Notes: generated from the sequence alone by a model not told the origin. DNA of 32,000 nucleotides from Opitutales bacterium (GCA_965219535.1 CBDCNV010000001.1:120001-152000); one strand, 5' to 3'. Counted from the stretch's first letter, positions 5,649 to 31,751 are shown. Made by a program: numbers and translations.

Positions 5649-5940
5649 CTAACATTAGATTAACCAACAAGCTATTGAGTTAGTCTCCGCTATCGAGGGA
5701 GAAAGTCAAAATGCAAATCGCAATGAATCGTTTTGTGTTCCGAGAGATGTGTTGGCTAGCATTATAGATGTATATGAATAATAGCCGGCAATGCAAGCGC
5801 GGGCAAGTGGCTCCCTTCAATCCCGACCCACGATGGCCAGAGGAAGATTACAAGGTTGAGGACTATATTTGATAACCGTTAGGAACAATCCGCAATCGTA
5901 ACGAGGGCAAAGCCCGACATCTCACAAACCGGCAATCGTA
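5649..5940 (+). repeat. Left copy of a ~290-nt duplicated intergenic segment (blocks A 5649..5719 and B 5858..5940)
   Basis: Colinear with 8130..8607. Shared strings are 'ctaacattagatta', 'agtctccgctat', 'gggagaaag', 'gcaagcgcg.gca', 'agagga..attac' and 'ccgttaggaacaatc'...'ccgacatc'...'gcaatcgta'. Confidence 0.75.
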
Positions 5941-6055
5941 CAGAGGGCGAAGCCCACCTGTCGTCCATTGCCTTGTAGCCCAACGCTTCAAATCAGCGGT
6001 GCGCGCAGCTTCTGCTCGATCCGCTGGTTAGCCTCCAGAGTTTTCGACATAATAT

Positions 6056-8110
6056 TCAGTTGATCGTAATCGTCACGCTTCGGCCCGGTCGTTCCAGGTT
6101 ACCGCTGTCGTCGACGGCTCGGCTCAAGATCGTGAAGGTTCCCGCCCGTGGCGGCAGCCACTGATAGTTCCAGGTCTCGCGTCCACTTGCCGGATGCCAA
6201 GTGACATTGTTATCGAGAGATACTTCGACTGCGGCGACTTGTCCGCCGCCTGTGTCCTGAGCGGTGCCACTGATCATCAAGGTGCTACGAGGCAGTGTCG
6301 CGCCTGAGCCGGGAACATGCACGGTCGAAGTTGGAGGTTCCTCGTCGGTGGACGCGATAGCCAGCGCAAGATCTTCTTGTAGCGTCGCTGGTTGCACACC
6401 CATGTCTGCAAACAGATTGATGGTCGCTTGTTGGATGTTCCTATCGGGACCGTTTGGATCGACACCCACCCGGGTCGAGTCGGGATTAGCACGCTCCGGC
6501 GGTACCCCGGTCTCGGTATCGTGGTGGGCATCCAAACCCCAACCCCACTGCACGGTGCCCGCGCCGAAGACCAAGGCACCGCTATTGTGACGATAAAGCG
6601 TCAGATGGTGGGTCGCGGTGCCCGAGTCATAAACCACGCCGTGGTCCTGAATGTAGGGAACGTTGTCGATGGTTGTCTCGGACAGGCGAAACAAACCGGG
6701 TGGGCGAAACCCGTTGTCGAGGTCCTCGTCCCACTCATGACCGAGCAGGCCCTTGAGCAAGACGGCTCTTTCGCCCGGCTCGAGATTGGCAACCTCCGTG
6801 TTGCGCCAGAACCGCAAGGCGGCGTATTCGGCGGGCACGATGAGTGGGTCGTTGCGCCATGCGTTCACCGTGAAAATGGTGCCGGTTAGGGCGTTTTCCG
6901 GCTGCGGGCCCTCCGGATTATAAGGTCGCGAGTCACGCCACGTCCCGGTCCAAACGTCGGCGACGGGGTCAGTCTTGGCGTTATCTCGCGTTTCCTTGTA
7001 GGTGACCAATGTTCGATGAGCGCTGCCGGAGGAGTCAATGCTTGGCTCCCAGCGGGTTTTCCAAAAAACTTCGTTGCCGCTGAAAAAGGCGAGGTGAACG
7101 CCCGCATCACGTGCCGCTTCGACATGTCGCCTTTGCTCAAGAGACCAGTATTCGTCGTGACCGACCGACAGAAACAGGCGGTGCTTGAGGATCTCTTCGC
7201 CGCGCCGATCGCTGTCGAGACCAGTGAAGTAGCTGACGTCGTAGCCATTGGCCTCAAGCCATCGGATGAAAGGATACTCGGCATTGAAAACCATGTTGAC
7301 GGCCCGGTAATGGCGGGTCTCGATCGGGCGGTTGTAGCTCACCTTGTAAGCGCGGGGCGGCCCGCCGTGTGCGCGTGGATTGTCGAGGTTAAGTCGGCCG
7401 TAGGTACAGTGGCCGCCATAGCGGTTGTAGGCCTGCCAGGTGGTATCCGAAGTTTGGAAGAGAATGTCAGAGCCGCCGTTGTCGTCCCGCACAACAAAAT
7501 AGATATGGCTTGCTCGCGGTTCGCGCAGCGCATTGGCAAGACGTCCATGTCCCAACGCTCCGTAGGCGTGTTGCGAGGCAGGTGGCCTCTCCGCCGGGCT
7601 TTCTCGACTATTGTCCGCACGCCAGCCCGCAGGGTCGGAATCCTGTCGTACCAGGCGCGCGAAATAGATTCCCGATGTGGTGTCTGACGGCGCTTGCCAG
7701 GAGGCCGAGACAGCCCAGTTGCCGCAATCGTAGAGGTGAGTGGCCGGGTCCGTCATACATTCCGGCTGAAGTTGGGGGAGAGAGATCGACGGCTTGATGG
7801 TGTCGACACGACGTGCGCCCAGCCCACCATAGAAACCCATTCGATAAATGTCGATCCGATAGTCGGTCGAGTCCGTTTTGATCTTGAAGAAGATCGTCTC
7901 ACCTTGATTGATGCTGATGTCGTGGCCGAAGCCTTGGATCGTCGGATCACCCCAGCCGTTAATATCCCACTCGGTTGCGGGATCGCCCGACAGGCAGTTT
8001 TCCAGGACTATGTTGTTAGCGGGTTGTGGGCCGCGATCTATCGGTTCTTGACTCATTTGTTCCCGTTCTAGTTTATGCCATGACAACGCGTGCCAAATGA
8101 CATTGTTCAT
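6056..8110 (-). CDS. N,N-dimethylformamidase large-subunit-like family protein with a C-terminal Ig-like domain; GC-rich, probably acquired
   Basis: The N-terminal region 'NIVLENCLSGDPATEWDI...IQGFGHDISINQGETIFFKIKTDSTDYRIDIYRMGFYGGLGARRV' matches the pattern I recall for DmfA2-like (DUF6605-type) proteins. A hand-counted line (6061-6120) is 62% GC. Many long alternative-frame ORFs on both strands are typical of high-GC coding DNA. The start could instead be the ATG at 8056 (M19). Confidence 0.7.
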   Translation of the reverse strand: MNNVIWHALSWHKLEREQMSQEPIDRGPQPANNIVLENCLSGDPATEWDINGWGDPTIQGFGHDISINQGETIFFKIKTDSTDYRIDIYRMGFYGGLGARRVDTIKPSISLPQLQPECMTDPATHLYDCGNWAVSASWQAPSDTTSGIYFARLVRQDSDPAGWRADNSRESPAERPPASQHAYGALGHGRLANALREPRASHIYFVVRDDNGGSDILFQTSDTTWQAYNRYGGHCTYGRLNLDNPRAHGGPPRAYKVSYNRPIETRHYRAVNMVFNAEYPFIRWLEANGYDVSYFTGLDSDRRGEEILKHRLFLSVGHDEYWSLEQRRHVEAARDAGVHLAFFSGNEVFWKTRWEPSIDSSGSAHRTLVTYKETRDNAKTDPVADVWTGTWRDSRPYNPEGPQPENALTGTIFTVNAWRNDPLIVPAEYAALRFWRNTEVANLEPGERAVLLKGLLGHEWDEDLDNGFRPPGLFRLSETTIDNVPYIQDHGVVYDSGTATHHLTLYRHNSGALVFGAGTVQWGWGLDAHHDTETGVPPERANPDSTRVGVDPNGPDRNIQQATINLFADMGVQPATLQEDLALAIASTDEEPPTSTVHVPGSGATLPRSTLMISGTAQDTGGGQVAAVEVSLDNNVTWHPASGRETWNYQWLPPRAGTFTILSRAVDDSGNLERPGRSVTITIN

Positions 8111-8265
8111 GCCTCCGAAGTAATGCAGGCTAACATTAGATTAGACAACAGGCTTTCGACCAGTCTCCGCTATTGCTGGGAGAAAGGCAATTGGCAAATC
8201 TAAAAGAGAGTCGAAGGTCCAAAGTCGAAAGCGGAGAGCGCAAGCGCGTGCACGCAATGACTATA

Positions 8266-8301
8266 AGGTGGAGCGGGCTGTCTCAGCACGCTTCTTCAAT
8301 T
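8266..8301. repeat. Palindromic intergenic repeat 'C', short form (36 nt)
   Basis: 'aggtggagcgggctg-tct-cagcacgcttcttcaatt'. The arms are identical to those of 3795..3861. Confidence 0.75.
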
Positions 8302-8415
8302 ACGACTAAATCAAACGCACTGGGGAACAACCTTCGCTGTGTATTGTTAAGCTACGGCGGTCCATCCTTCGCTTTTAGCTTCGGACGACAGGCAGGCAGC
8401 CCGCTTCACCTCCTT

Positions 8416-8526
8416 ATTGTCATTGCGAGGAGCAGCGCGACGCGGCAATCCAGTGGAATGTCAATACGTGACCGGCTTTCCCCTGGATTGCCGCGGTCGA
8501 CTGATAGCCTCCCTCGCAATGACAAT
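8416..8526. repeat. MITE-like palindromic element 'D', intact copy (111 nt)
   Basis: Perfect 15-bp terminal inverted repeat 'attgtcattgcgagg'...'cctcgcaatgacaat'. Second perfect inner pair 'cgcggcaatccag'...'ctggattgccgcg'. The central loop carries 'gtcaatacgtgaccggc', which is shared with 4851..4987. Confidence 0.8.
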
Positions 8527-8607
8527 AGAGGATTACGAAGATGAGAATTATATTCGATATCCGTTAGGAACAATCTACAATCCGACATCCCCCAATCCGC
8601 AATCGTA

Positions 8608-11600
8608 TCATTCAATCGTGATCTCATCGATTGTCACGGTGATATCCTCTCCATCCTCATTTGCGAACGTTGCATTGATGCTCTGTGTCGGTTGAGGGGT
8701 GTTATCGGACTTGAAATTGTTCTGGGTGATCAGGGTCTCGAACCCGGGGGTCGTCGATCCACTCTCCGCTACGACGATCGATGCGACGTTTGACTGTGCC
8801 AGGTCTCCACCTGTTATCCGCAACCCGGGGTTGCCCGCCGGCACGGTGAATGATCCTGTGCCAAACAATAAGTGTGGTACCGCATCGCCGCTGGCATCGA
8901 TGTCGCCTACAGTTAAGCGTACCGCGATCGGCACTCCGCGCGCGTCAACGCCAACCTTGCCTGTGCTCCCGCCGAATACAGTGTTCGATAACTGCATCCC
9001 TCCTATGCCTGAAGAGTTAATCACTTCTACCAATGACACGTCCGCTTGCGCATCATAGACCTGTCCCTCGGGGAAGAGCGCCTGGTTCACCGCGTTGATC
9101 GATCCGACGGTGAAGATACTGAAAAAGGTATTCGAATTAGCTCCATCGATGACCACACTTGGTTTACCGGTGACGTACTCCACTGCCTGATTGTAGCGCG
9201 GAGGTATAGCCGGAGGCAGGAAAGTGGCTGGGTCCAAGGTTATGGTAAAAGTCCCTGTGCCTGAAAACTCTACCTGTACTATGTCCTCGGTTTCATCCAT
9301 GAAGGAGACTCGTGTGATCTGTTCTTCCTTTGCCTGAAACTGAATGAATTCACCGGTGAGCAGGACCTGATCAAACACGTTCCCGTTAGGGTGCGCAATG
9401 TTTTCTCCCGCCACATCACCCGAGCCATCGAGAATTAATTTGGCGACCGATGATAATATAACATTATGCCGTCCACCAGCAGTTATGGATGTAACGTTTA
9501 CAACCCCCGCGGGTGCTTCGGCCTGCCCGGAATCATTGAGCCCCCACCCGATCACTTCCCCCGCAGCATCGAGCGCCAGATTGTGGTTTAATCCAGCCGC
9601 GATGGAGGTTACCGCACTCGCATTGAAGGCCACCGTTATTTCGTTTTTCGCGCTCAGGCTTGCCTGGGGCTGGGCTGCGTTAAATGGAATATCCAATTGC
9701 CCAAATGTATTATCACCCCAGGCTACCGTAACACTATCCTCGGTCAGCGCCAGGCTGTGGTTATCTCCTGCTGAGATTGCTGTCACATTCGACAGATCGG
9801 CAGGTACATCCGTCTGGCCGGAGTCATTCAGACCCCAAGCGACGACAGAGCCATCATTTTTTAAGGCCAGGTTATGAAACCCACCGGCCGCCAATGCAAA
9901 GACATCGGTCAGGTCTCCAGGGGGTGTTGCCTGGCCATGGTCATTATTACCCCAGCCGATAACAGTACCATTCGACAATAGAGCGAGGCTATGACTTCTT
10001 CCGGCAGACACTTCGATCACATCGCTTAATCCTGCAGGTACATCCGTCTGGCCGTTATCATTGTTACCCCAGGCGACTACGGTGCCATCCGCTATCACGG
10101 CTAAATTATGATCATACCCCGCATCCACATCGGTAACATTTACCACTTCATCGGGTATAGTCGATTGTCCCGCTTGGTCCCTGCCCCATCCGACTACGCT
10201 GCCGTCATTTCTCAAACCGATATTATGGTCCAGCCCGGCCGACACCTCGATCAGTTCGGGCGCGCCCTCTCCGCGAATAGCTCCCGGCACGCCACCTTGA
10301 TCAAAATCATCAGCACCATAGCCGGCTGCCGTTACCCTCGTTTCAATTTCCTCCTCCACAGGGGGATCACCATTTCCTGTTTGCCCGCCAGGTTCCTTAA
10401 AGTAGAAGCTGTTGTAAGTGAGATTTTGAAGGTCATGGTATTGCAGATCCAGGTTTGTTACGTCAGCCCAGGGAATGCTCTCACTGCTAAGGTCAAGATT
10501 TGTGATATTGCTGAGTTGATCGTTTAGTACTCGCGAAAAAGTAGGACCGCTTTGCCGCGTTATCCGGAATTGGAATCCGTTAACGGGAAAGGTAGGGGAA
10601 ATTTCATCACCGGTTGAAGGATCTCTATAGGTCCAGGAAACACTCTGGATATTATTGTTACTGTCGAGCATCACGGTAGGAAGGATAACCAAGTGATAAT
10701 CTTCAGCCATGGAAGTATCAAAATCAGTTGTAACATCCATGCCTTTATAACTTACGCTATAAGTGCCACTTGGTGGGTAAGGAGGAATACTTACACTGGG
10801 TATACCATAAAAGTTAACATCTTCACCCGGACTAAAAAAAACAGCTGGACTATTGTTGTATTGGGAGCCGTTGGGTCCGCTGAAGAACACCTGGTTCGGA
10901 TCGGGAAGTTCGGTGTCCACCACGCTAAAGTTAAGAAAATAATTTAAATTGGCAGGAAAACCTAGATCCACACCTACTAAACTTCCAGTGCGTGCTGTGA
11001 AATCACCACCGGATTGAAAAATCATACTGATAGAGGTATCGGGTGCGCTCTCACCAGTAGTACGAAATACAAGATCGGTCGTTGCGTTGAATCCCGCAAG
11101 ACCGGTAACGATTTCGACCGGGTTGCCAACGGTGTAATCTGTATCATTGATGTCGACGATATTGATAAAATTCAAAACCACTATGTAATCCGTTCCCGGT
11201 TGCAAGGTGCCCGCAGGAATGGTGACCGAGGTCGCTGTATAATCTAAACTTCCGGATTCAGGTGGAAGCGGAGTCTCAAAAACTATATCTCCATCCATAT
11301 AAGTTTCGATTTCCATGAGGATAAAATCCCCTGCATTTCCATTGGCAAAGGCATCCCAAGTAAGAGTAAAATCCTGGCTGGGATCTACTGCTTGCGTCTC
11401 CGCCAAATTAGTAATTCGAGGATCGTTCGGAAACCTTACGCCGTTAACCGGATCGGCATTTAAATTTAAAGTAGCGGATATGCTGCCATCGTTAGTGGCA
11501 ATTATATTCATGATGTATGCGCCATCGGGGTAATTAGAATCGAGATCAATGATCGAATCAAAGATTTGCACAGATTCCCACTCACCTTCAGATTCTTGGA

Positions 11601-11826
11601 CCAATGACTGAGGACTGCCGCCCGGAGGCGTTACCGTAGCGCTGATAATGGAATCAGGGGTAGTTCCAAATACTGAAACTTCGAAACTGTATTTATCAGC
11701 GGCTCGTGCATCTTTGAATATTACGTACAATTCTGCATCCGCAGCTTTAAGATTCGCTTCAAATAAAAACAGTATGGTAATTATAAGAGCAAAGATATGA
11801 GAGAGCGGTATGCGTTTAATTTTCAT
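8608..11826 (-). CDS. Large secreted protein (1072 aa): signal peptide, N-terminal beta-rich region, six RCC1-like repeats, then the conserved 275-aa C-terminal module
   Basis: Signal peptide 'MKIKRIPLSHIFALIITILFLFEANLKA'. Repeated '[GA]WG.N..GQ...P' units (GWGRDQAGQSTIP, AWGNNDNGQTDVP, GWGNNDHGQATPP, AWGLNDSGQTDVP, AWGDNTFGQLDIP, GWGLNDSGQAEAP). The C-terminus is shared with 18390..20507. Confidence 0.85.
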   Translation of the reverse strand: MKIKRIPLSHIFALIITILFLFEANLKAADAELYVIFKDARAADKYSFEVSVFGTTPDSIISATVTPPGGSPQSLVQESEGEWESVQIFDSIIDLDSNYPDGAYIMNIIATNDGSISATLNLNADPVNGVRFPNDPRITNLAETQAVDPSQDFTLTWDAFANGNAGDFILMEIETYMDGDIVFETPLPPESGSLDYTATSVTIPAGTLQPGTDYIVVLNFINIVDINDTDYTVGNPVEIVTGLAGFNATTDLVFRTTGESAPDTSISMIFQSGGDFTARTGSLVGVDLGFPANLNYFLNFSVVDTELPDPNQVFFSGPNGSQYNNSPAVFFSPGEDVNFYGIPSVSIPPYPPSGTYSVSYKGMDVTTDFDTSMAEDYHLVILPTVMLDSNNNIQSVSWTYRDPSTGDEISPTFPVNGFQFRITRQSGPTFSRVLNDQLSNITNLDLSSESIPWADVTNLDLQYHDLQNLTYNSFYFKEPGGQTGNGDPPVEEEIETRVTAAGYGADDFDQGGVPGAIRGEGAPELIEVSAGLDHNIGLRNDGSVVGWGRDQAGQSTIPDEVVNVTDVDAGYDHNLAVIADGTVVAWGNNDNGQTDVPAGLSDVIEVSAGRSHSLALLSNGTVIGWGNNDHGQATPPGDLTDVFALAAGGFHNLALKNDGSVVAWGLNDSGQTDVPADLSNVTAISAGDNHSLALTEDSVTVAWGDNTFGQLDIPFNAAQPQASLSAKNEITVAFNASAVTSIAAGLNHNLALDAAGEVIGWGLNDSGQAEAPAGVVNVTSITAGGRHNVILSSVAKLILDGSGDVAGENIAHPNGNVFDQVLLTGEFIQFQAKEEQITRVSFMDETEDIVQVEFSGTGTFTITLDPATFLPPAIPPRYNQAVEYVTGKPSVVIDGANSNTFFSIFTVGSINAVNQALFPEGQVYDAQADVSLVEVINSSGIGGMQLSNTVFGGSTGKVGVDARGVPIAVRLTVGDIDASGDAVPHLLFGTGSFTVPAGNPGLRITGGDLAQSNVASIVVAESGSTTPGFETLITQNNFKSDNTPQPTQSINATFANEDGEDITVTIDEITIE
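8611..9438 (-). other. Conserved C-terminal module, copy 1 (aa 798-1072, ends ...ATFANEDGEDITVTIDEITIE)
   Basis: My ungapped hand alignment with aa 431-705 of the 18390..20507 product gives 164/275 identical residues. Confidence 0.8.
9439..10296 (-). other. RCC1-repeat (beta-propeller) region of the 1072-aa protein (aa ~511-796)
   Basis: Six units of ~50 aa, each with 'AG..H..AL..DG.V..WG.N..GQ'. Confidence 0.8.
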
Positions 11827-13821: not shown

Positions 13822-15054
13822 CTAAGGCTTATTCTCTTGTTGCTGGCTCAGCCAAAGCTCAGCCCCGCGTACGGATTCAGCAACTTGCGCTTCAGACATA
13901 TTCTCCTGCAGCAAGTTTAAGATTTCTTTAAATTCTGTCATACCTCCCGCGATAGCGAGGCTTATCCATTTGTAAGCTTCAATAAAATCGCGCTCCACCC
14001 CCTGGCCGTCAGCATACATCACTCCAAGGTTGTGTTGGGCTCCGGCGACTCCCCGTTCCGCTGCTTCGCGAAACCACTTGACGGCCTCTCCATAATCCTG
14101 AGTTACTCCCTCACCATCGCGATACATTACCCCAAGATTGTATTGGGCCTCTGTCATACCTTGTGCGGCCGCTTTGCGATACCAAGTTAAGGCTTCGGTA
14201 TAATCCTGAGTGACTTCCTCGCCCGTGTAATACATCGTCCCAAGGTTGTATTGGCTATCGGCGTGGCCCTGTTCGGCCGCTTTGCGATACCATGTCACCG
14301 CCTCGCTGTAATCCTGGGTTACCCCTTGAACATTATGATACATCCACCCAAGGTTGGATTGAGCTCCTGCGTCTCCCTGTTCGGCCGCTTTGCGATACCA
14401 CTTGAAAGCCTCATCATAAGACTGAGTAACCCCCAAGCCCTCTCTGTAGATCTCCCCGAGAGCAGTTTGGCCTTTGGCATTTCCCTGGTCCGCCGCTTTG
14501 CGAATCCAGGTTAAGGCTTCATCATAATCCTGGGTTATCCCCTGGCCCGCTGCGTAGATTACGCCGAGGGCAGTTTGGGCTTTGGCATCTCCCTGGTCTG
14601 CAGCCTTGCGATACCATGTGGTGGCTTCGGTGTAATCCTGCTCGACCCCTTGTCCTTTTTCATACATCGCTCCCAGTCTGTTTTGAGCTCGCATCGATCC
14701 CTGTTCTGCTGCCTTGCGTGTCCATGTGACAGCCGCGTTGTAATCCTGCTCTGCCCCTAGACCCTTTTCATACATCACCCCAAGGACGTATTGGGCTTTG
14801 ATGTAACCTTGTTCTGCGGCTTGGCGAATCCATTTTAAAGCTTCGCCAAAATCCTGAGTTACCCCCTCGCCAGCGTAATACCTCCCCCCGAGGTAATATT
14901 GCGCTTTAGCTTCACCCGTTTCTGCGCGCGTTATGATATCTGCTAATCGTTCATTCTCTACACCGACTACAGCAGAGGGCAGAATTAAGAACGCAATTAT
15001 TGAGCGCCAATATTTCACCCCTGTAAATAATTTAGCTATTTTTTCAGGCATCAT
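13822..15054 (-). CDS. Sel1-like repeat (SLR/TPR-like) protein with an N-terminal signal/anchor and nine 36-aa repeats
   Basis: Nine tandem units of the form 'AQ..LG.MY..G.GV.QDY.EA..WYRKAAEQG'. Hydrophobic N-terminus 'YWRSIIAFLILPSAVVG'. Confidence 0.9.
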   Translation of the reverse strand: MMPEKIAKLFTGVKYWRSIIAFLILPSAVVGVENERLADIITRAETGEAKAQYYLGGRYYAGEGVTQDFGEALKWIRQAAEQGYIKAQYVLGVMYEKGLGAEQDYNAAVTWTRKAAEQGSMRAQNRLGAMYEKGQGVEQDYTEATTWYRKAADQGDAKAQTALGVIYAAGQGITQDYDEALTWIRKAADQGNAKGQTALGEIYREGLGVTQSYDEAFKWYRKAAEQGDAGAQSNLGWMYHNVQGVTQDYSEAVTWYRKAAEQGHADSQYNLGTMYYTGEEVTQDYTEALTWYRKAAAQGMTEAQYNLGVMYRDGEGVTQDYGEAVKWFREAAERGVAGAQHNLGVMYADGQGVERDFIEAYKWISLAIAGGMTEFKEILNLLQENMSEAQVAESVRGAELWLSQQQENKP

Positions 15055-20564: not shown

Positions 20565-20591
20565 CTCTTATAATTTTAAAAATTATAAGAG
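20565..20591. promoter_or_regulatory. Perfect 27-bp palindrome (13+1+13) in the upstream region of the 18390..20507 gene; candidate operator
   Basis: 'ctcttataatttt a aaaattataagag'. It lies 58-84 nt upstream of the ATG at 20507 and contains tataat-like hexamers on both strands. Confidence 0.4.
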
Positions 20592-21033: not shown

Positions 21034-21849
21034 ATGAATACACCTCCTTTATCTGTTCTCAGTGCGTTCGAGTGTGATTGTGATCCCATACCTTTAGACA
21101 TTAACGCAAACCGAGTTTTTCGTTGCGGCGAAAGCGTCCTCAAACGAATAGACAGTTATGTGGAATCTGAAGGCACCGCTATTCTGCAGGTTCAAATTTC
21201 AAGCGATGAATTTCGTATGCCGCGTCCGATTCAATCTTGTGAAGGCACCTACGTCTACGAGGGATGGACCGCCTTTGAATATCTCGATGGGAAGTTCGAA
21301 CGTGGTAGATCGGAGGATGTGATTGACCTGTGTATCACCTTTCATGATGCCGTATTCGGCTTCCTTCGACCGGCTTTTCTGGACGATAACGAGAATCCAT
21401 GGACGATAGCGGATCACGTTGTTTGGGATGAGCAGCCCTATACACCAGATCCGAAGATTGCGTCATCCGTGGAGAAACTACAGTCCATTCTAAGGGCGAT
21501 AGATCAGCCAAGTCAGTTAATCCATGGAGATTTTTCAGAAAATGTCCTTTTCTCAGAGAATCATCCACCGGTGGTCATCGATTTCTCACCGTATTGGCGA
21601 CCGGCCGGCTTCGCCCTGGGTATCGTGGTTGCAGATGCATTGGTTTGGGGTGGAGCGGATGATTCGATTTTTGAGAAGATTCCGCCGCTACCTGATTTCG
21701 ACCAACTGTTGGCTCGAGCAGAACTCCGTCGGATCATCGAACTTGATACAAACGCGAGAATAGGTCTGAACAACAAGCTTGATGAAATTGTCGCCCATCA
21801 GCCGACGATCGATCTAATATGTGAAAGGATTCGTCAGACGTCTTCTTGA
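21034..21849 (+). CDS. Aminoglycoside/choline-kinase-like phosphotransferase (APH family fold)
   Basis: 'LIHGDFSENVLFSENHPPVVIDFS' matches the catalytic-loop and Mg-binding pattern HGD....N......IDF of APH/ChoK-type kinases. 271 aa. Confidence 0.65.
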   Translation: MNTPPLSVLSAFECDCDPIPLDINANRVFRCGESVLKRIDSYVESEGTAILQVQISSDEFRMPRPIQSCEGTYVYEGWTAFEYLDGKFERGRSEDVIDLCITFHDAVFGFLRPAFLDDNENPWTIADHVVWDEQPYTPDPKIASSVEKLQSILRAIDQPSQLIHGDFSENVLFSENHPPVVIDFSPYWRPAGFALGIVVADALVWGGADDSIFEKIPPLPDFDQLLARAELRRIIELDTNARIGLNNKLDEIVAHQPTIDLICERIRQTSS

Positions 21850-21971
21850 AAGTGCTATTCGGAACTTTCTGGACGTGGATAGGCTAATAATTCACCTAGG
21901 AACATAACAGAACCAACCACGATCACCTGCACTTGTAACCTTAAACGGCGTCGCGTGGCACGCTACCATGA

Positions 21972-23159: not shown

Positions 23160-23234
23160 AGTCGTCTCCTAACTGGGTTCAGATTATTTGTTTGATGTCA
23201 GGGCGATCGCGGGCTTATGAAATCAGCAACAGGC

Positions 23235-25754: not shown

Positions 25755-26110
25755 CGCAATACCTCGTCAGTTTGGTTTAGATATTAGGTTTTGGTAAATT
25801 TGAGATGCTGAGTTATTTCACTAAAGAGTGCCTCTGTCAAAATTGTTGTATCCGCACTTATTGAGATACCGTTTTTCGTACCAATTTTTAAGTGAGTAAG
25901 TTACCGGGTGTTAATGGTTTTAGGATTGATGACTATGAGAGATCTTGGCGAAGTGAGGGCATAGCACAACCACGGCCAAGTTCTGAAGGAATCTGACAAA
26001 CTTTTGTAGGCTTTTAAAGCCTAATAGACTGTGGGGATGTTTATTGTTATAGGTATGACTCCATTGTTCGATTACTATTTGCGCTTCAGCTGTAGCGCCA
26101 ACTTAATAAC

Positions 26111-28039
26111 TTATGGCGTAGGACGAAAGCGAAAAGAATAGAGGTCCGCGTCTTTGCAAACAAAACGTAAACGGACGGGTTGTCCTGACAGTTTGCCAAG
26201 ACTGGAAGAATCCAACCAGTTTACCTTGCGCTCGATGGAGTCGCCGAATACAGCGTGACAATCCGCCAAAGTAAATCCTTCTATCGGTTTACCCGATTCA
26301 TTCTGTATTTCGACCTGAACGCCACCCGCTGCGGAGCTCGAGAAATTGATGACCATCTCGTCGCCATCGAAAACAAGCGGCTTGGTAACCAGTTCACCGC
26401 CGCTGAGAGGAGCGTTGACCGAAACGAATCCATCGATGCGCATCGTGTAGCGGCGGAGTTGACTGCTGGTGCCAGTCCAGTAACCTTCGGTTGCATAGAG
26501 CGACAACTCGTTCGGAGCGTCTTCATATTTAGATTTTGTTTCGACCAGTTGCCAGGCAATGAACTGGTTACCATAGGCCCAACTGTGCTTTCGCTCGATA
26601 CCCGGTCGCAGAAACGCATCATCCCATCGTTTGAAAGTATGTCCGTCTCGGCTGGTCATGAACAAGGCTTCGGTGACCGCAGTGCCGAAACGGGGTTCCA
26701 ACTTATCGTGACCTTCGTAAACAACAAGCTCTGGATCAGAGCCGGCTCGTTGAAGGCGCTCGGATAATTCCGGCAGCGCACGTGTTGAATCCGACCATCC
26801 ACGGTTGATATAGCGGGTAGGAAAGCCAATGAGAATATGCGGCGCTCGGTAATACGGTTTGATTTGGTTGGTGTATAAATGATCGGGCCGCGCGCCAGGG
26901 TATTTTAGACGGATGGGATCGACCCAGTTCACAAAGTCACTCGAGGTCATTGTCATAATATCGCGGCGATCATCCGGCCAGGAACGAAAGTAGAGGCGGT
27001 AAAGTCCATTGGCAGAATCCCAAAATGCCAGGTTTTGCGAATCGAAATAAATACTTTTTACGGTTGGTTCAAAGATCTTCATTTCGCTTTCTGAAATGAT
27101 CTTTTTGTCACTCATTGCTGTCCAATGAATGCCGTCAGCCGACTTGAATACCCTTAATCCTTCAAAATCACCGGACACACGAATAGCTTTGTAACGTGCA
27201 TCCGGTGGTGCTTCAGGGTTTGTGTCTTTAAACACCGCGGAATGTACGGCGTCGACAGCATTGAGTAAAATCGGACCTAACACCTTCCCGTTAGGACCTT
27301 GCATCTCTTTTACGGCAGTACCGTCCAAATCTTCAATAACCGGAGTGACGGGGGGAGCTGTAACAGTGATGATCGAAGTATCACTGTTAATATAAACTCC
27401 AGCTTTTGTTGTTATCTGGACCCAGAAGTTTGTGCTCTCATTTAGAGGGCCGGTATTCAAGGTGTTGCTGGTTGCACCTGCGATGGGCTTAGAAGTGTCA
27501 CCAGGTTTGCCGATATACCATTGATATTTCAGATCGTCACCTTTTACTTCAATGGAAATAACTACCGCGGTACCGGACTGCACTTCCCTGTCAGTCTGGT
27601 TGTCGGCCCACATGATATTATTTTTCTTTGATCCGTTGAAATCAATGAGTCCCAGTTCGGGTTTTCGCCAGTGAATACCGTCGTCACTTTCGGCGTAACA
27701 GTAGTATAGCGGGTGCGTCCAGTCGAGATTACCTTCGGTGGTAGTATACTGGCTCGCCTTGTAATACAAACGAAAGAGATCGCCATCTTTAAAGATACTG
27801 TGATAGTTAGTGGCATTGCCTTCCCAGGGTTCATCATGGACAATTGCCACATCCTGCGGAGTGGGATGGTGTAAAGTCTGCCGGGCCCCGCCGGACAACT
27901 CGTCGATCAGATAATCATCGACAAAAAGCTCCCAACGCGAACCAATGTCGATCGGCTCCTGAGAATGGTTGGAAATGTCAGCACAAGCGAGAAGGAGTAC
28001 TATTGATATTAAAATAAATACTGTTGATAATAATTTCAT
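26111..28039 (-). CDS. Lipoprotein with a putative beta-propeller glycoside-hydrolase-like fold and an inserted Ig-like domain
   Basis: Lipobox 'VLLLAC' (Cys19). 'YYCYAESDDGIHWRKPELGLIDFNGSKKNNIMW' and later 'SADGIHWT' resemble GH32/43/sialidase-like propeller proteins of PVC and Bacteroidota. An Ig-like segment 'KYQWYIGKPGDTSKPIAGATSNTLNTGPL' lies between them. The function is unverified. Confidence 0.6.
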   Translation of the reverse strand: MKLLSTVFILISIVLLLACADISNHSQEPIDIGSRWELFVDDYLIDELSGGARQTLHHPTPQDVAIVHDEPWEGNATNYHSIFKDGDLFRLYYKASQYTTTEGNLDWTHPLYYCYAESDDGIHWRKPELGLIDFNGSKKNNIMWADNQTDREVQSGTAVVISIEVKGDDLKYQWYIGKPGDTSKPIAGATSNTLNTGPLNESTNFWVQITTKAGVYINSDTSIITVTAPPVTPVIEDLDGTAVKEMQGPNGKVLGPILLNAVDAVHSAVFKDTNPEAPPDARYKAIRVSGDFEGLRVFKSADGIHWTAMSDKKIISESEMKIFEPTVKSIYFDSQNLAFWDSANGLYRLYFRSWPDDRRDIMTMTSSDFVNWVDPIRLKYPGARPDHLYTNQIKPYYRAPHILIGFPTRYINRGWSDSTRALPELSERLQRAGSDPELVVYEGHDKLEPRFGTAVTEALFMTSRDGHTFKRWDDAFLRPGIERKHSWAYGNQFIAWQLVETKSKYEDAPNELSLYATEGYWTGTSSQLRRYTMRIDGFVSVNAPLSGGELVTKPLVFDGDEMVINFSSSAAGGVQVEIQNESGKPIEGFTLADCHAVFGDSIERKVNWLDSSSLGKLSGQPVRLRFVCKDADLYSFRFRPTP

Positions 28040-28248
28040 AGCGGAGAATTTCGGTTACAGATTGTGTATTTGCAATTGTAATGAATAGCATAGATAGATA
28101 ATGAACTACCTGAGTGCAGCCAACCCTATCAAAACATCAAGAGAGAGCAAAAGAAAACATAGGGATTGTCATCTTTTCCTTTTCATTCACGCGATGCCAT
28201 GAACTCGGATTATCTGCCAAATTTTCGGATTCTTAGCCGCTCGGGTCG

Positions 28249-29247
28249 TCAAGCCCCGAAGCACTTCTCTACCCACTCCATCGGTTGGAACGGTTCCCCG
28301 AAAAGTGCTTGCATCAACTCGCCCCAAAGTCGTTCTGCGTTGTCGCTGTTGCCCATGAAGACCGCGCCGGTACGGGAATCGGGAAAACCGATAACGAACG
28401 ATCGTGTGCAAGGTCTTGCGCCCCACTGCCACACAGCGAGCTGGTCGTCGTCGCGATGGATGCCCCAGCCCAAACCCCAATGGATCGTGTCGTTGACCTG
28501 GATCTGCGGCGTGAACATCGCGCGATGCAGATCATCCGAAAGTCGAAGCGGATGGTCGCGAGGCTGTGTCAGCACGAAGCGCAGGAAGCGGGCATAATCC
28601 AGCGCGCTGCAGTGAAGACTAGCAGCGGCATTCATCTCGGGCAGAGTTGCCTTCGGCTTGGCTTTACCTTCCGCATCGTGCGGATGCGCAACGGACAGGT
28701 CCTCGTTCCCTGTCCACACGAACGTAGCACCTTGCATCTCAAGGGGTGTCATCACCTCCCGCGCGATATAGGCGTGCACCGGTTCGTCGACTAGCGCATC
28801 CACAACATGCTGCAGGTAAAGGAAGCCTTCGCCCGAATAGGAGAATTGGCGGCCGGGGTCAAAGTGCGTGCGCAGCACGTCTTCACCTCGCATGTTCGGA
28901 AATCCCGACGTGTGGCTCAGCACATGGCGGGTGGTGATCGCGTTGACGCGCTCGTCCTCCACGTAGTCGTTGTCGAGATATGCGCAAAGGGGTCGATCAA
29001 GGTTCAGAAGTTCCTCTTCGCAGAGCTTCAGGACGGCATACGCGAACACCTGCTTACTGAGCGAAGCCGCTTCGAAGACCGACGTCGATGTCACCGGTTC
29101 ATTCGTGTCGGTGCACAGCACGCCAAAGCCCTGGTTCCAGGCGATTTCACCGTCTACCACAACGCAAACACAGAGACCGGGCACCGTCTCGCGCGCCATC
29201 CACTCGGGGATGGCTTCAGCGAGAGAGTGAAAGTCAATGTTCATCAT
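28249..29247 (-). CDS. Serine hydrolase, beta-lactamase class C / esterase (EstB-like) family, cytoplasmic; GC-rich
   Basis: 'ASLSKQVFAYAV' is the S-x-x-K motif, 'YSGEGF' is a Y-x-N-like motif, and the C-terminal part has 'HWGLGWG'. There is no signal peptide. A hand-counted line (28861-28920) is 58% GC. Confidence 0.85.
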   Translation of the reverse strand: MMNIDFHSLAEAIPEWMARETVPGLCVCVVVDGEIAWNQGFGVLCTDTNEPVTSTSVFEAASLSKQVFAYAVLKLCEEELLNLDRPLCAYLDNDYVEDERVNAITTRHVLSHTSGFPNMRGEDVLRTHFDPGRQFSYSGEGFLYLQHVVDALVDEPVHAYIAREVMTPLEMQGATFVWTGNEDLSVAHPHDAEGKAKPKATLPEMNAAASLHCSALDYARFLRFVLTQPRDHPLRLSDDLHRAMFTPQIQVNDTIHWGLGWGIHRDDDQLAVWQWGARPCTRSFVIGFPDSRTGAVFMGNSDNAERLWGELMQALFGEPFQPMEWVEKCFGA

Positions 29248-29433
29248 TCAGATAAGAAATCGCTGTAGATTATACATCAACTGATTAAATTACTACAAAA
29301 CATAATTAAAACCGAATGCCGTATTTACCGTGAAAGTACCGGTTCGTTTTGCTAAACAAAATCCGCTCTCCTTTATATGCTGAACTCGATATTGAACATA
29401 AATTTTAATCTTTAACTAATTTATGAGAATGTT

Positions 29434-29460
29434 TTGAATGCACCGGTGAGAATTTATAAT
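29434..29460 (+). promoter_or_regulatory. Possible sigma70-type promoter for the tRNA-Lys gene
   Basis: 'ttgaat' (29434..29439), a 15-nt spacer, then 'tataat' (29455..29460), 48 nt upstream of the mature tRNA 5' end. The spacer is shorter than the 16-18 nt optimum. Confidence 0.3.
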
Positions 29461-29507
29461 GGTGTCACAATTCATCATTCATCATTCTTCATTCATCTTT
29501 TAATAGC

Positions 29508-29584
<77 letters not shown>

Positions 29585-29735
29585 TTCGGCTTCGCTCATG
29601 GCAGGCAATTCGACTCCGACCTGCTGGCCGTCGCTCATGGCAGGCAATTCGATTCGGCCATCTTGGCCTCATTCATGACAGGTCAATTTTCGAATCGGCT
29701 TTGCTTGCTTCACTCATGGCAGGTCATTTATTATT
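29585..29735 (+). repeat. Four tandem 38-41 bp repeats starting immediately after the tRNA 3' end
   Basis: Cores are 'tcgctcatggcaggcaattcga' at 29592 and 29631 (identical), 'tcattcatgacaggtcaattttcga' at 29669 and 'tcactcatggcaggtcattta' at 29710. A fifth partial core 'ggcaggtcattttcg' lies at ~30772..30786. Confidence 0.8.
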
Positions 29736-29755
29736 GATTACTTATGCATCCTACC

Positions 29756-29887
29756 ATGACGGAACACGAACACTATCTCTTTGATTTACGTGACTATATT
29801 GTTATCCCCAATGCATTGTCCCCAGAGCCGATGCCGATGATCGACAAGGAATGGCTCGCAGAGGAAGAACGAAAGCTGGGCAGCTAA
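29756..29887 (+). pseudogene. Truncated 5' duplicate of the PhyH-family gene at 30977 (43 codons, then stop)
   Basis: 55 of the first 62 nt from the ATG are identical to 30977..31038. 'MTEHEHYLFDLRDYIVIPNALSPE' aligns with 'MTEHERYLFDLRGYIVIPDALTPE'. The sequence diverges afterwards and stops at 29885..29887. Confidence 0.7.
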
Positions 29888-29911
29888 ACTCAGCGCAACC
29901 TGGAGAAGACG

Positions 29912-30757
29912 ATGAGTAGACTGACCGACGCACATATCGAGGAGCTCGACCGCGAGGGCTTTTTTATCGTCCCGGACTTTATCAGCGGTGACCAACTCAC
30001 AACCCTGCAGGCGGCACAGCGGCGAGCCCTGCCGACCTACGAGCAGGTCAAGGACGACCCCCCGCAGGACCAGGCCGGCCATAGCCTGCTGAAGTGTTTT
30101 CCGTACGAGGAGATCGAGCTCTACCGAGCAACGATGGACGAGGAGAGCATCGCCTTCGCCCGCAAATGGCTCAAGACGGACGACATTCACATGCGGGTGG
30201 GCTGCCTGATCGCCCGCTATCCCGGCCACACCAGCGGCGGCACGGGTTTCGACGATTCGGGCTTGCACATCGACAATGGCAACAACTCGCTTTTGCCCAA
30301 AAGCGAAGACCGGCGCGAATTCGGTCAGATCGGTTTCTGGGTTCACCTCGAGGAGGTGGAGGAAGACCAGGCGCCGCTGCGGCTAGTCCCCAAGCAGCAC
30401 GGCAGGGACATGACAAAATGCTTCCCGCTCGTGTGCAAGAGCGGCACCCTGTGCGTCTTCACCAACTACAGCTGGCACAGCGCCAGCGCCTACACCGGCC
30501 AAGACGGCCAGCGTTTCACCTGGGGTTATGGCTTCGGCCGCGCCGACCACTACTGGGAGGGCTTCAGGCACTATACCCACCTGGGCAAGGGCGCGGCGGT
30601 ATTCCAGGAGTTTATCGGTGGCCTGACCGCCGCCCAGCGCCAGCTCTGGCGCTTCCCCCCGGCGGGACACTCCTACTATACGGAACAGACCCTGGCGCTA
30701 TTGGAAGAACAGTACCCGGGTTGGGACTCGAACGAATACCGCCGGGCGATGCCATAG
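29912..30757 (+). CDS. PhyH-family Fe(II)/2-oxoglutarate dioxygenase, strongly GC-rich (probably acquired)
   Basis: RBS 'ggag' 8 nt upstream. 'REGFFIVPDFIS', 'LHIDNGNN' (H.D) and 'NYSWHSASAYTGQDGQR' (distal His block). A hand-counted line (30181-30240) is 70% GC, against 47% in the neighbouring paralogue. Long overlapping alternative-frame ORFs are consistent with this. Confidence 0.8.
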   Translation: MSRLTDAHIEELDREGFFIVPDFISGDQLTTLQAAQRRALPTYEQVKDDPPQDQAGHSLLKCFPYEEIELYRATMDEESIAFARKWLKTDDIHMRVGCLIARYPGHTSGGTGFDDSGLHIDNGNNSLLPKSEDRREFGQIGFWVHLEEVEEDQAPLRLVPKQHGRDMTKCFPLVCKSGTLCVFTNYSWHSASAYTGQDGQRFTWGYGFGRADHYWEGFRHYTHLGKGAAVFQEFIGGLTAAQRQLWRFPPAGHSYYTEQTLALLEEQYPGWDSNEYRRAMP

Positions 30758-30811
30758 CCGCCTCTGCCGGCAGGTCATTTTCGCTCTATAGAGCTAGGCA
30801 AGTTATTACTT

Positions 30812-30836
30812 GGCCACGACGACGCGTGGCCCTCCA
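30812..30836. repeat. REP-like hairpin 'E', short form
   Basis: 'ggccacg-acgacg-cgtggcc' followed by 'ctcca'. The same arms and tail occur at 31752..31817. Confidence 0.65.
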
Positions 30837-30976
30837 ACATGCACTTGTATCCTGCATCGTGCATCATAATCTCCTCAATCGATAATCCTTACCAAGGGCG
30901 AACCTCGACATCATCAAAATCGGTAATACCATACCTGATACGACACCACATTAATTGACTCCATAAACATCCTGTC

Positions 30977-31750
30977 ATGACTGAACACGAACGGTATCTC
31001 TTTGATTTACGCGGCTATATTGTTATCCCCGACGCATTAACCCCTGAACAGATTACAGATCTGAACGCTCTTATGGACGAACAGGTTGAAAAAGAATGTG
31101 AGCCGGATGAGAGATTGCACCGCTTTGTTCACCTTTTGCACTGGGGACAAGCTTGTCGCAGCCTGATCGACAACCCGGTTATCGTCCCGTATTTAGTCGA
31201 GCTGCTGGGCGAACAGTTTCGCCTCGACCATGATTACGCGGAGATAATCAGAACAGGTTCAGGGAATCTCCCGAGAACGTTTCATGGCGGTGCCCATCCC
31301 TTCAACCCCGTTATGTATTATAACTATCATTCGGGGAGCATGTATAATGGACTGACTGTCGTCGCTTTTAATTTAAAAGATATACACCCCGGTGACGGTG
31401 GATTTGGTTGTGTACCCGGAAGCCATAAAAGCAATCTTTCGTTTCCGGAGGATTGGCGCGATATTAATAAAGCTCCTTCAATTATCGAAAAGATCACGGG
31501 GCAGGCAGGGACTGCGATCATTTTCACTGAAGCGCTCACTCACGGGACATTACCCTGGCTCGGGAAAGATGACCGGCGGACAATATTTTATAAATACAGT
31601 CCACACACCCTCTCATGGGCAGCACAATATTATGATGCTGATGATTATACCGATTTGACGGAACGGCAACGGGAGATTCTCGAGGCGCCCAATGCACGCT
31701 ATAAGGAGAGGAAAGAGTTTTACCTGAACTATCCCAATAAAAAGCAATAG
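30977..31750 (+). CDS. PhyH-family Fe(II)/2-oxoglutarate dioxygenase
   Basis: 'YLFDLRGYIVIPDAL', 'GFGCVPGSHKSN' and 'IIFTEALTHGTLPW...RRTIFYKY' are typical PhyH-family blocks. 257 aa. Confidence 0.85.
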   Translation: MTEHERYLFDLRGYIVIPDALTPEQITDLNALMDEQVEKECEPDERLHRFVHLLHWGQACRSLIDNPVIVPYLVELLGEQFRLDHDYAEIIRTGSGNLPRTFHGGAHPFNPVMYYNYHSGSMYNGLTVVAFNLKDIHPGDGGFGCVPGSHKSNLSFPEDWRDINKAPSIIEKITGQAGTAIIFTEALTHGTLPWLGKDDRRTIFYKYSPHTLSWAAQYYDADDYTDLTERQREILEAPNARYKERKEFYLNYPNKKQ

Positions 31751-31751
31751 C

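What the first reader, a model, noticed from the sequence alone, without database searches (positions are those of the whole stretch)
5649..31038. The same insertion architecture occurs twice: GC-rich single-gene cargo flanked by direct duplications of local sequence, without any recombinase gene
The DMFase-like gene (6056..8110) and the GC-rich PhyH gene (29912..30757) are both single, intact, strongly GC-shifted genes. Each is bracketed by direct repeats that are copies of the neighbouring native DNA (about 290 nt and about 80-110 nt). In both cases the right-hand copy has since accumulated extra palindromic elements. The repeats are not element-specific termini, which argues against a classical transposon or integron. 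They point instead to homology-driven capture, such as Campbell-type insertion of circular intermediates or an unrecognised gene-capture mechanism. A third GC-rich gene (28249..29247) lies on the other side of the tRNA, but I could not find flanking duplications for it.
Basis: inference. Interest (0 to 1): 0.7.

Follow-up and report, generated by a model that had tools for sequence, protein, structure and literature searches.

The report
Foreign genes inserted with long target duplications
Two GC-rich genes acquired from other bacteria sit in this sponge-associated Opitutales genome between diverged duplicate copies of the local DNA. This is the known "insertion with long target duplication" pattern, best explained by the host's own recombination machinery, here seen for ordinary metabolic genes rather than restriction-modification systems.

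Summary
The DMFase-like gene (6056..8056/8110, GC 59%) and the GC-rich PhyH gene (29912..30757, GC 62%) are each bracketed by direct repeats of non-dispersed local sequence. Pair 1 is 5649-5940 vs 8130-8607 (77-85% in collinear blocks). Pair 2 is 29733-29832 vs 30954-31053 (81%). No other gene tested in the window has such repeats.

Related genomes carry the same cargoes between different local duplications:
- A sister species has DMFase inside a 325/354-nt, 96-97% identical repeat that includes the last 26 codons of uxuA.
- Another has the PhyH cargo between tRNA-Lys 3'-end repeats.
- A pelagic relative has the empty PhyH site, with an integrase island at the same tRNA.

The cargoes diverge 3-10 times less at synonymous sites than their neighbours. 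The PhyH insert also carries the 3' end of a donor oxidoreductase gene, and one junction sits on a microhomology.

The best explanation is host recombination: one illegitimate joint plus homologous exchange, either homology-facilitated illegitimate recombination (HFIR) or a Campbell-type single crossover. This produces the known "insertion with long target duplication". It is a new member of a known kind, in a new lineage and with non-RM cargo. Interest is moderate.

The parts
5325..5618 (-). Small AT-rich ORF (97 aa, membrane-like). It is the native gene whose upstream region is the left b1 copy.
   Evidence: ORF. Terminator-like hairpin directly after its stop (5313-5333). GC 0.37. Not called as a gene in the source record.
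5649..5726 (.). b1, left copy of pair 1 (78 nt)
   Evidence: 77-79% identical to 8130-8207. This second b1 copy exists only in this genome; species B and C have a single b1, upstream of DMFase.
5727..5842 (.). Spacer 'm' between b1 and b2 in the left copy. It has no counterpart elsewhere.
   Evidence: No match in the window or in related loci.
5843..5940 (.). b2+b3, left copy of pair 1
   Evidence: 82% (55 nt) and 85% (27 nt) identical to 8528-8607. b3 is 95% identical to species B and b2 is 83%. Contains a 40-nt internal tandem duplication, 5887-5915/5927-5955.
5941..6055 (-). 3' flank X that travels with the DMFase gene among the Opitutales species
   Evidence: 91% identical to species B. 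The module shared with species C ends at 5982. Its weak hairpin is not attC-like.
6056..8110 (-). DMFase-like cargo gene (DMFA2_C + Big_7). The start shared with homologues is 8056; the ORF runs to 8110 through an 18-codon extension.
   Evidence: Pfam E 4e-103. GC 0.59. Homologues are 74-88% aa identical in seven or more phyla. Nucleotide homology to high-GC genomes is confined to 6050-8065.
8130..8207 (.). b1, right copy: the native-composition leader directly upstream of DMFase
   Evidence: 87% identical to the single b1 of species B.
8208..8256 (.). Outer end of the DMFase module shared by species W, B and C. It includes 8236-8252, which resembles the uxuA 3' sequence at the junction in species B.
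   Evidence: 98% identical to B, and homology to both B and C stops at 8255/8256. In B the next bases are a uxuA 3' fragment.
8253..8527 (.). Nested MITE-like palindromic elements inserted in the right copy
   Evidence: Inverted repeats I2-I5. Copies at 3797-3861 and 4848-4990, and 15 terminal-repeat hits in 165 kb of related loci.
8528..8607 (.). b2+b3, right copy, abutting the stop codon of the RCC1-repeat gene
   Evidence: Orthologous b2 lies next to the homologous gene's stop in species B.
28187..29289 (-). Third GC-rich single-gene module (beta-lactamase-family, CDS 28249..29247). It has no flanking duplication and sits at a different place in species B.
   Evidence: 91.5% identical to L006 1314-2416, but among different neighbours. 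Homology to species C stops at 28190. Four-fold-site divergence 0.13. No flanking repeat.
29508..29584 (+). tRNA-Lys(CTT), an integration hotspot in this clade
   Evidence: ARAGORN and Rfam. Integrase island plus a tRNA 3' fragment in pelagic relatives, and att-like tRNA repeats around the cargo in L014.
29585..29732 (.). Four ~39-nt tandem units downstream of the tRNA (native)
   Evidence: Homologous units follow the tRNA or tRNA fragment in L009 and L014.
29733..29832 (+). Left copy of pair 2: native upstream region plus the first ~25 codons of PhyH, now a dead-end fragment. The last ~9 nt are donor-like.
   Evidence: 81% identical to 30954-31053. Collinear with the tRNA, units and upstream region of the empty site in L009. 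Site patterns at positions 78-83.
29824..29887 (+). E3: the last ~20 codons and stop of a donor GFO/IDH/MocA oxidoreductase gene, fused in frame to the PhyH 5' fragment
   Evidence: The peptide is 82% identical to the C-terminus of the gene upstream of the PhyH homologue in the 62%-GC contig L114 (E 6e-17).
29889..30757 (+). GC-rich PhyH cargo: 23 nt with the ribosome-binding site, then CDS 29912..30757
   Evidence: Pfam PhyH. This exact stretch is shared at 93.5% with a pelagic contig at an unrelated locus. 94.7-96.5% identical to species B and C. Only ~25% aa identical to the native PhyH.
30758..30953 (.). Spacer between cargo and right copy. It contains unit fragments of the species-C type (30768-30800) and a hairpin (30812-30831).
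   Evidence: Absent from species B. 16/16 and 19/21 nt matches to L014 units that follow its tRNA fragment.
30954..31053 (+). Right copy of pair 2, the 5' end of the intact native PhyH gene (30977..31750)
   Evidence: 90-91% identical to the single or right copies of species B and C.

Best explanation
The host is a sponge-associated Opitutales (Verrucomicrobiota). The two GC-rich genes are foreign coding sequences that circulate among co-resident sponge and marine bacteria. The most likely route of integration is host recombination, not an element-encoded enzyme.

**Proposed steps (inferred).** A DNA fragment carrying the foreign gene next to a stretch of Opitutales sequence entered the cell. 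One end recombined homologously with the resident copy of that stretch. The other end was joined illegitimately at a few bases of microhomology, at a point inside the region the fragment also carried. Formally this is HFIR of a linear fragment, or equivalently a Campbell-type single crossover of a circularised fragment. Either way, the foreign gene ends up between two copies of the local sequence, a long target duplication.

**Consequences.**
- The interrupted native gene survives intact on one side: native PhyH here, uxuA in the sister species. A dead gene fragment is left on the other side.
- The cargo sits behind a copy of a native upstream region.

**Two additions.**
- The cargo PhyH probably first reached this locus on a tRNA-Lys-targeting integrase island, now decayed.
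- After establishment, the cargo modules kept being exchanged between related species by homologous recombination.

**Shown:** the anatomy, the comparative structures, the empty site, the foreign origin, and the low synonymous divergence.

**Inferred:** the order of events, and linear versus circular intermediate.
For: 1. The repeats are real, local and not dispersed. Only the cargo genes have them.
2. The same DMFase cargo in sister species B lies between a 325/354-nt, 96-97% identical duplication. That repeat consists of an intergenic block, a MITE and the last 26 codons plus stop of uxuA, and leaves uxuA intact. The structure is seen in three independent assemblies.
3. The PhyH cargo has an empty site in pelagic relatives: one copy of the upstream + 5' region and no cargo. 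The left copy in the window is collinear with that native arrangement.
4. The cargo is a random donor fragment, not a cassette. It carries the 3' end of the donor's upstream oxidoreductase gene, matched in a 62%-GC contig.
5. Junctions lie on microhomology. ACAGAT is shared by PhyH codon ~26 and the element in species B. In the window, CCCC(N)GA is shared at the join.
6. The spacer right of the cargo carries unit fragments of the species-C type, not of the window's own left side. This fits the right copy having arrived with the cargo.
7. Four-fold-site divergence between species is 0.04-0.13 for the three GC-rich genes, against 0.29-0.49 for most native neighbours. The cargoes therefore moved after speciation.
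8. Repeat lengths vary (34-354 nt), and the repeats span a start or a stop codon. Both are described for insertion with long target duplication (PMC2853133).
9. Single crossovers of truncated circles gave 109-950-bp duplications in an E. coli HFIR assay (PMC3240628).
Against: - No circular or linear intermediate is observed, and the host's competence, RecA and end-joining genes were not examined.
- The window's repeats are only 77-85% identical. Either they are old, or the two copies come from different species. RecA-type exchange at that identity would be inefficient.
- Pair 1 is composite. b2 is duplicated in two species, but the second b1 copy is private to this genome, and the gene order around DMFase differs among the three species. 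Later rearrangements, rather than the insertion itself, could have produced part of the pattern.
- No empty site was found for the DMFase insertion.
- The low synonymous divergence could reflect allelic replacement of an already resident gene rather than new insertion.
- The third GC-rich gene has no duplication.
Confidence: 0.6

Rival explanations
1. Site-specific integration: the repeats are attL/attR of integrative elements whose tyrosine integrase has been lost or acts in trans. The element-borne copy of the target reconstitutes the interrupted gene.
For: - Pelagic relatives have a 472-aa Phage_integrase plus an HTH_17 island abutting a 48-nt tRNA-Lys 3' fragment, right upstream of the native PhyH.
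- In L014 the PhyH cargo (1.26 kb, no integrase) lies between the intact tRNA-Lys and a 34-45-nt copy of its 3' end.
Against: - In the window the tRNA 3' end occurs once.
- The repeats here are a PhyH 5' region and an intergenic region. They are 100-290 nt long, share no sequence between the two sites, and differ again in species B, where the repeat includes the uxuA 3' end.
- The left PhyH copy is contiguous with native upstream DNA.
- No integrase lies near DMFase in any of the three species.
Confidence: 0.15
2. The duplications are unrelated to insertion. Local segmental or tandem duplications, and rearrangements mediated by the abundant MITE-like elements, happened to bracket genes that were already there.
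For: - Gene order around DMFase differs among species W, B and C.
- A b2+MITE unit sits at several block boundaries, once inverted.
- The second b1 copy is private to the window genome.
- A tandem duplication followed by loss of one cargo copy gives the same end product as a Campbell insertion.
Against: - Within the window only the foreign genes are bracketed.
- In three separate cases the duplication boundary coincides exactly with the cargo boundary and cuts a native gene, while leaving an intact copy of that gene.
- The empty site for PhyH has a single copy.
Confidence: 0.15
3. A dedicated, so far unrecognised gene-capture system acting in trans inserts single promoterless genes with long target duplications.
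For: - The cargo modules are strikingly tight: PhyH is 23 nt + CDS at a fourth locus, and DMFase foreign DNA is about equal to the CDS.
- Three single-gene GC-rich modules lie in one 32-kb window, and a fourth (Transglut_core) lies next to DMFase in species C.
Against: - The junctions share no sequence or structure.
- One cargo drags along a fragment of the donor's neighbouring gene.
- The same genes in 52 other genomes or contigs have no flanking repeats.
- Known host pathways suffice.
Confidence: 0.05
4. The flanking similarities are chance, or copies of dispersed intergenic repeats.
For: The extra pieces inside the right copy of pair 1 are indeed dispersed elements.
Against: - BLAST E values are 1e-11 to 2e-24 in kilobase-sized search spaces.
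- b1, b2/b3 and the PhyH 5' block have no further copies in the window or in about 250 kb of related loci.
- Pair 2 is coding sequence of the adjacent gene.
Confidence: 0.02

Closest known systems
Insertion with long target duplication (Nobusato et al. 2000, Gene 259:99; Furuta et al. 2010, NAR, PMC2853133)
   Same: - A short insert without mobility genes, flanked by long, variable-length direct repeats (46-423 bp in the paper; 100-354 nt here).
- The repeats are single-copy in an empty-site genome.
- The repeats often span a start or stop codon, so the target gene stays intact.
- The inserts differ in GC content from the host genome.
   Different: - All published cases are restriction-modification genes, and the authors suggested the mechanism depends on RM-induced DNA breaks. 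Here the cargo is metabolic: DMFase-like, PhyH dioxygenase.
- The window's repeats are far more diverged (77-85%) than most published ones.
- The host is an uncultured sponge-associated Opitutales.
Homology-facilitated illegitimate recombination in natural transformation (de Vries & Wackernagel 2002; Prudhomme et al. 2002; Meier & Wackernagel 2003; cited from PMC3240628 and PMC5361080)
   Same: A one-sided homologous anchor plus an illegitimate joint at a 3-8-nt microhomology brings in foreign DNA. The donor fragment has arbitrary ends; here it includes a piece of the donor's neighbouring gene.
   Different: - Classical events usually delete recipient DNA. Here the illegitimate joint lies inside the recipient's copy of the anchor, so a duplication results.
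- Competence of this host is unknown.
Campbell-type single crossover of a circular molecule carrying partial homology (e.g. 109-950-bp lacZ duplications in E. coli, PMC3240628)
   Same: The insert is bracketed by direct duplications of the homologous segment. Repeat length is set by the homology carried, and no dedicated recombinase is needed.
   Different: No circle is observed here. The molecule would have to arise by circularisation of a chromosomal fragment, not from a plasmid.
tRNA-targeting genomic islands with tyrosine integrases
   Same: The same tRNA-Lys locus carries an integrase island in pelagic relatives, and an integrase-less cargo between tRNA 3'-end repeats in species C.
   Different: In the window the repeats are not tRNA sequence, and no integrase is present.

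Membership tests
Insertion with long target duplication (criteria of Furuta et al. 2010) | Insert flanked by direct repeats longer than 30 bp | tested here: met
   100 nt at 81% for PhyH. Blocks of 78+55+27 nt within 292/478-nt spans for DMFase. 325/354 nt at 96-97% in species B.
Insertion with long target duplication (criteria of Furuta et al. 2010) | A related genome has the empty site, with the repeat sequence in single copy | tested here: met
   Met for the PhyH site: L008-L013 have one copy of the upstream + 5' region and no cargo. No empty site was found for the DMFase site.
Insertion with long target duplication (criteria of Furuta et al. 2010) | Insert under 20 kb, with no transposase or integrase in or beside it | tested here: met
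   The inserts are about 0.9 and 2.2 kb, each a single gene. Pfam scans of the window ORFs found no mobility genes.
Insertion with long target duplication (criteria of Furuta et al. 2010) | Repeat sequence otherwise unique in the genome | tested here: inconclusive
   Unique in the 32-kb window and in about 250 kb of related loci. The complete genome could not be scanned.
Insertion with long target duplication (criteria of Furuta et al. 2010) | Cargo is a restriction-modification system (true of all published cases; not a mechanistic criterion) | tested here: not met
   The cargoes are DMFA2_C/Big_7 and PhyH proteins.
Homology-facilitated illegitimate recombination | One junction at a short microhomology, the other within extended homology | tested here: met
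   ACAGAT is shared at the PhyH-fragment/element joint in species B. CCCC(N)GA is shared at the joint in the window. The other side runs into the homologous native gene. About 14 nt of similarity lies at the uxuA joint.
Homology-facilitated illegitimate recombination | Host takes up DNA (natural competence) and has RecA-dependent recombination | not testable with these tools
The mosaic low-divergence tracts between species are only indirect evidence.
tRNA-integrating genomic island | Direct repeat of the tRNA 3' end at the far side of the insert | tested here: not met
   The tRNA 3' sequence occurs once in the window (via L002, which is 100% identical to window 19912-32000). The feature is met in relative L014.
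tRNA-integrating genomic island | Tyrosine integrase in the island | tested here: not met
   None in the window. Present at the same tRNA in pelagic relatives.
Integron gene cassette | attC recombination site at the 3' end of each cassette, and an IntI integrase or cassette array | tested here: not met
   The PhyH module ends at its stop codon. The DMFase 3' flank folds weakly (z = -1.9) and asymmetrically. There is no integrase and no array.
Transposon / insertion sequence | Terminal inverted repeats, a short fixed-length target duplication, and a transposase | tested here: not met
   No inverted termini bound the cargoes. The duplications are long and variable. No transposase is present.

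The most novel reading that the evidence does not exclude
Insertion with long target duplication may be a general, RM-independent route of single-gene gain in (presumably competent) uncultured symbionts. In this sponge-associated Opitutales clade it would act repeatedly on a pool of GC-rich metabolic genes shared across at least seven phyla. Each time it would supply the incoming coding sequence with a duplicated native upstream region, while preserving the interrupted host gene. The resulting repeat-flanked modules would then behave as translocatable units, excising and re-inserting by host recombination in sister species.
Probability: 0.25. Interest if true: 0.6.

Novelty: new member of a known kind. 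Interest (0 to 1): 0.42.

Why it matters
- Insertion with long target duplication has been documented only for restriction-modification genes, and was proposed to depend on their DNA-cutting activity. Clear cases with ordinary metabolic genes argue that the host's recombination machinery is sufficient.
- The case gives a concrete mechanistic footprint for how genes shared across phyla in a sponge microbiome become fixed in a recipient chromosome without disrupting the target gene.
- It yields a simple, scannable signature for other metagenome-assembled genomes: a GC3-outlier gene, a truncated native gene fragment, and a diverged direct repeat.

Tried and rejected
- **Dispersed-repeat explanation.** Rejected for b1, b2/b3 and the PhyH 5' block. 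It is accepted for the extra MITE-like pieces.
- **Tandem paralogues.** Cargo and native PhyH share only ~25% identity over short stretches.
- **Integron cassette / attC.** The DMFase 3' flank has weak core-like motifs, but the fold is poor and asymmetric, and the PhyH module has no 3' flank at all.
- **Rfam scan of the window.** Only the tRNA was found.
- **Promoter/terminator consensus scans of the repeats.** Uninformative.
- **Does the architecture travel with the cargo?** No flanking repeats around the DMFase gene in 22 other genomes, or around PhyH homologues in 30 metagenome loci.
- **Flanking duplication for the beta-lactamase-like module.** Only a 16-nt match of doubtful significance in species B.
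- **Recombination breakpoint inside native PhyH.** The identity profile is patchy with no clear break, so linear (HFIR) and circular (Campbell) intermediates could not be told apart.
- **Donor sequence for the DMFase flanks (X, leader).** None found.
- **Empty site for the DMFase insertion, via uxuA homologues.** One hit was species C with the gene present; the other was an unrelated context.
- **Assembly artefact.** Rejected. The window differs from the ENA contig by one indel only, and the structures of species B recur in three independent assemblies.

Full report
**Source and host.** The window matches an ENA long-read metagenome contig (ERZ25072670, 362 kb) apart from one indel. Its genes are sulfatases, PhyH dioxygenases, PEP-CTERM, Sel1 and RCC1 repeat proteins. 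The closest species-representative genome is titled 'Opitutales bacterium', and its locus L016 is identical to L015. I call the window's organism species W. Relatives are species B (L006, L015, L016, L096), species C (L014, L180), and a pelagic group (L008-L013).

**Observation.** Both repeat pairs exist.
- Pair 2: 29733-29832 and 30954-31053 are 81% identical over 100 ungapped nt. The repeat is the upstream region and first ~25 codons of the native PhyH gene 30977..31750. The left copy is a truncated fragment that runs into the cargo.
- Pair 1: three collinear blocks (5649-5726/8130-8207, 5843-5897/8528-8582, 5914-5940/8582-8607; 77-85%) lie within 292-nt and 478-nt spans. The right span runs exactly from the stop codon of the RCC1-repeat gene to about 20 nt before the DMFase ORF.
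- The surplus in the right copy of pair 1 (8253-8527) is nested MITE-like elements that recur in the window and in related loci.
- The repeat blocks themselves are not dispersed.
- Of the 17 window genes tested, only the two cargo genes have flanking direct repeats.
- The GC shift is strong: GC3 is 0.67, 0.82 and 0.69 for the three GC-rich genes, against about 0.36-0.61 for the neighbours.
- The third GC-rich gene has no duplication.

**The cargoes are foreign and mobile.**
- DMFase homologues at 74-88% aa identity occur in Poribacteria, Myxococcota, Gamma- and Alphaproteobacteria, Caldilineaceae and Ardenticatenaceae MAGs.
- Nucleotide homology to 56-60%-GC genomes is confined to 6050-8065, roughly the CDS.
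- The PhyH cargo has 73-93% homologues in many marine contigs whose own GC matches the gene.
- The 64 nt in front of its ribosome-binding site (29824-29887) encode the C-terminus of a GFO/IDH/MocA oxidoreductase. That protein is encoded immediately upstream of the PhyH homologue in the 62%-GC contig L114, with 82% identity at E 6e-17. The insert is therefore an arbitrary piece of a donor chromosome, not a cassette with defined ends.
- Four-fold-degenerate site divergence between species W, B and C is 0.04-0.13 for DMFase, cargo PhyH and the beta-lactamase-like gene. It is 0.29-0.49 for most native neighbours. One sulfatase gene is also low (0.07, W-C), so interspecies recombination tracts are not confined to the cargoes.

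**Same cargo, different local duplications.**
- In species B the DMFase module sits between an Ig_7 gene and uxuA, a different neighbourhood from W. It is bracketed by a 325/354-nt repeat at 96-97% identity.
- That repeat consists of block b2, a MITE and the last 26 codons plus stop of uxuA. The intact uxuA continues from the right copy. The structure recurs in three assemblies.
- In species B the PhyH locus has the same layout as W. The left copy ends at the same PhyH codon, but about 70 more nt of element sequence follow it, and the cargo abuts the native gene directly.
- In species C the PhyH cargo lies immediately after the intact tRNA-Lys. It is followed by a 34-45-nt copy of the tRNA 3' end, and there is no PhyH 5' duplicate.
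- Pelagic relatives have no cargo and a single PhyH 5' region, which is the empty site. They also carry a tyrosine-integrase island abutting a tRNA-Lys 3' fragment.
- A further pelagic contig has the PhyH module (exactly 29889-30756) at an unrelated locus.

**Junctions.**
- In B, the PhyH fragment (...GAACAGAT) joins element sequence that in C reads ...GTACAGATAATGG. That is a 6-nt microhomology.
- In W, the last 9 nt of the 'left copy' carry the donor states, so the join is at CCCC(N)GA. This is explicable by a later deletion between two similar 13-mers.
- The outer end of the DMFase module is the same in W, B and C (8255/8256). In B it abuts uxuA where about 14 nt are similar.
- Right of the PhyH cargo, W carries fragments of the post-tRNA repeat units in the species-C form, not the form on W's own left side.

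**Mechanism.** The data fit host recombination. A fragment carrying the foreign gene plus adjacent Opitutales sequence recombines homologously on one side. On the other side it is joined illegitimately, at a microhomology inside the recipient's copy of that same sequence. Equivalently, a circularised fragment integrates by a single crossover. Both routes give a foreign gene between two copies of local DNA, a truncated native fragment on one side and an intact native gene on the other. I could not distinguish the linear from the circular version.
- The tRNA-flanked form in species C and the integrase islands in the pelagic relatives suggest the PhyH cargo first entered the locus by site-specific integration and was then re-placed by such an event.
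- Pair 1 in W is composite. The b2 duplication is shared with B, while the second b1 copy (in front of the small ORF 5325..5618) is private to W. C has yet another GC-rich gene (Transglut_core) at that place. Later rearrangements have therefore overprinted the DMFase site.

**Comparison with the known.**
- The architecture is 'insertion with long target duplication', defined by genome comparison for restriction-modification genes. In that work the repeats are 46-423 bp, variable, often span start or stop codons, are unique in the genome, and align to an empty site (PMC2853133).
- Those criteria are met here for the PhyH site. They are met for the DMFase site except for the empty site.
- The published authors linked the process to DNA breakage by RM systems. 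The present cargoes are metabolic genes.
- Experimental precedent for the recombination route exists. Single crossovers of truncated circles gave 109-950-bp duplications in E. coli (PMC3240628). HFIR has been invoked for similar displaced gene fragments in Vibrio T6SS arrays (PMC5361080).

**Verdict.** This is a new member of a known kind, of moderate interest.

Noticed in passing
window 3797-3861, 4848-4990, 8253-8527; L015 3203, 9548, 12215, 20922, 21169; L014 9760; L180 13231: A family of MITE-like palindromic elements with terminal repeat TATTGTCATTGCGAGG and an internal hairpin. They are nested in one another and scattered through intergenic regions of these Opitutales genomes. A b2+MITE unit sits at several rearrangement boundaries.
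   Followed up: partly
L008-L013 (e.g. L009 193-1800): Pelagic relatives carry an island with a 472-aa tyrosine integrase and an HTH_17 protein, abutting a 48-nt tRNA-Lys 3' fragment just upstream of the native PhyH gene. No complete tRNA-Lys was found in the 4.5 kb available on the other side.
   Followed up: partly
window 28187-29289; L006 1314-2416: The GC-rich beta-lactamase-family gene is a tight 1.1-kb module. It occupies different positions relative to its neighbours in species W and B, and is absent from the corresponding place in species C. Its synonymous divergence is low (0.13).
   Followed up: partly
L180 13553-14101: In species C, another GC-rich single gene (Transglut_core, GC 0.59) sits directly downstream of DMFase, where this window has the left repeat and the small ORF. 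This site seems to be a hotspot for foreign genes.
   Followed up: no
window 29585-29732 and 30768-30800; L014 9547-9690: Tandem ~39-nt units (core CATGGCAGGYMATT) follow the tRNA-Lys. Their number and form differ between species. Function is unknown.
   Followed up: partly
window 6056-8056 and loci L017-L035, L085: The DMFase-like protein is 74-88% identical across MAGs of at least seven phyla, many from sponges, then drops to about 55-65% in soil and freshwater bacteria. This suggests a recent cross-phylum sweep of one allele family.
   Followed up: partly
window 28-1029 vs L180 7651-8961: The sulfatase gene has a four-fold-site divergence of only 0.07 between species W and C, while adjacent genes show 0.25-0.40. 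This looks like an interspecies recombination tract in a native gene.
   Followed up: no
window 13997-14873: The Sel1-repeat gene contains seven 108-nt tandem units at 60-70% identity.
   Followed up: no
window 19507-19676 / 20083-20252 and 20501-21000: The 705-aa ORF without Pfam hits has an internal 170-nt repeat 576 nt apart (75%). The region just upstream of it falls to 28% GC.
   Followed up: no
window 8608-11826 vs L001: The ENA contig differs from the window by a single-base indel. That indel splits the RCC1-repeat gene into two called genes, and is probably a long-read homopolymer error.
   Followed up: partly
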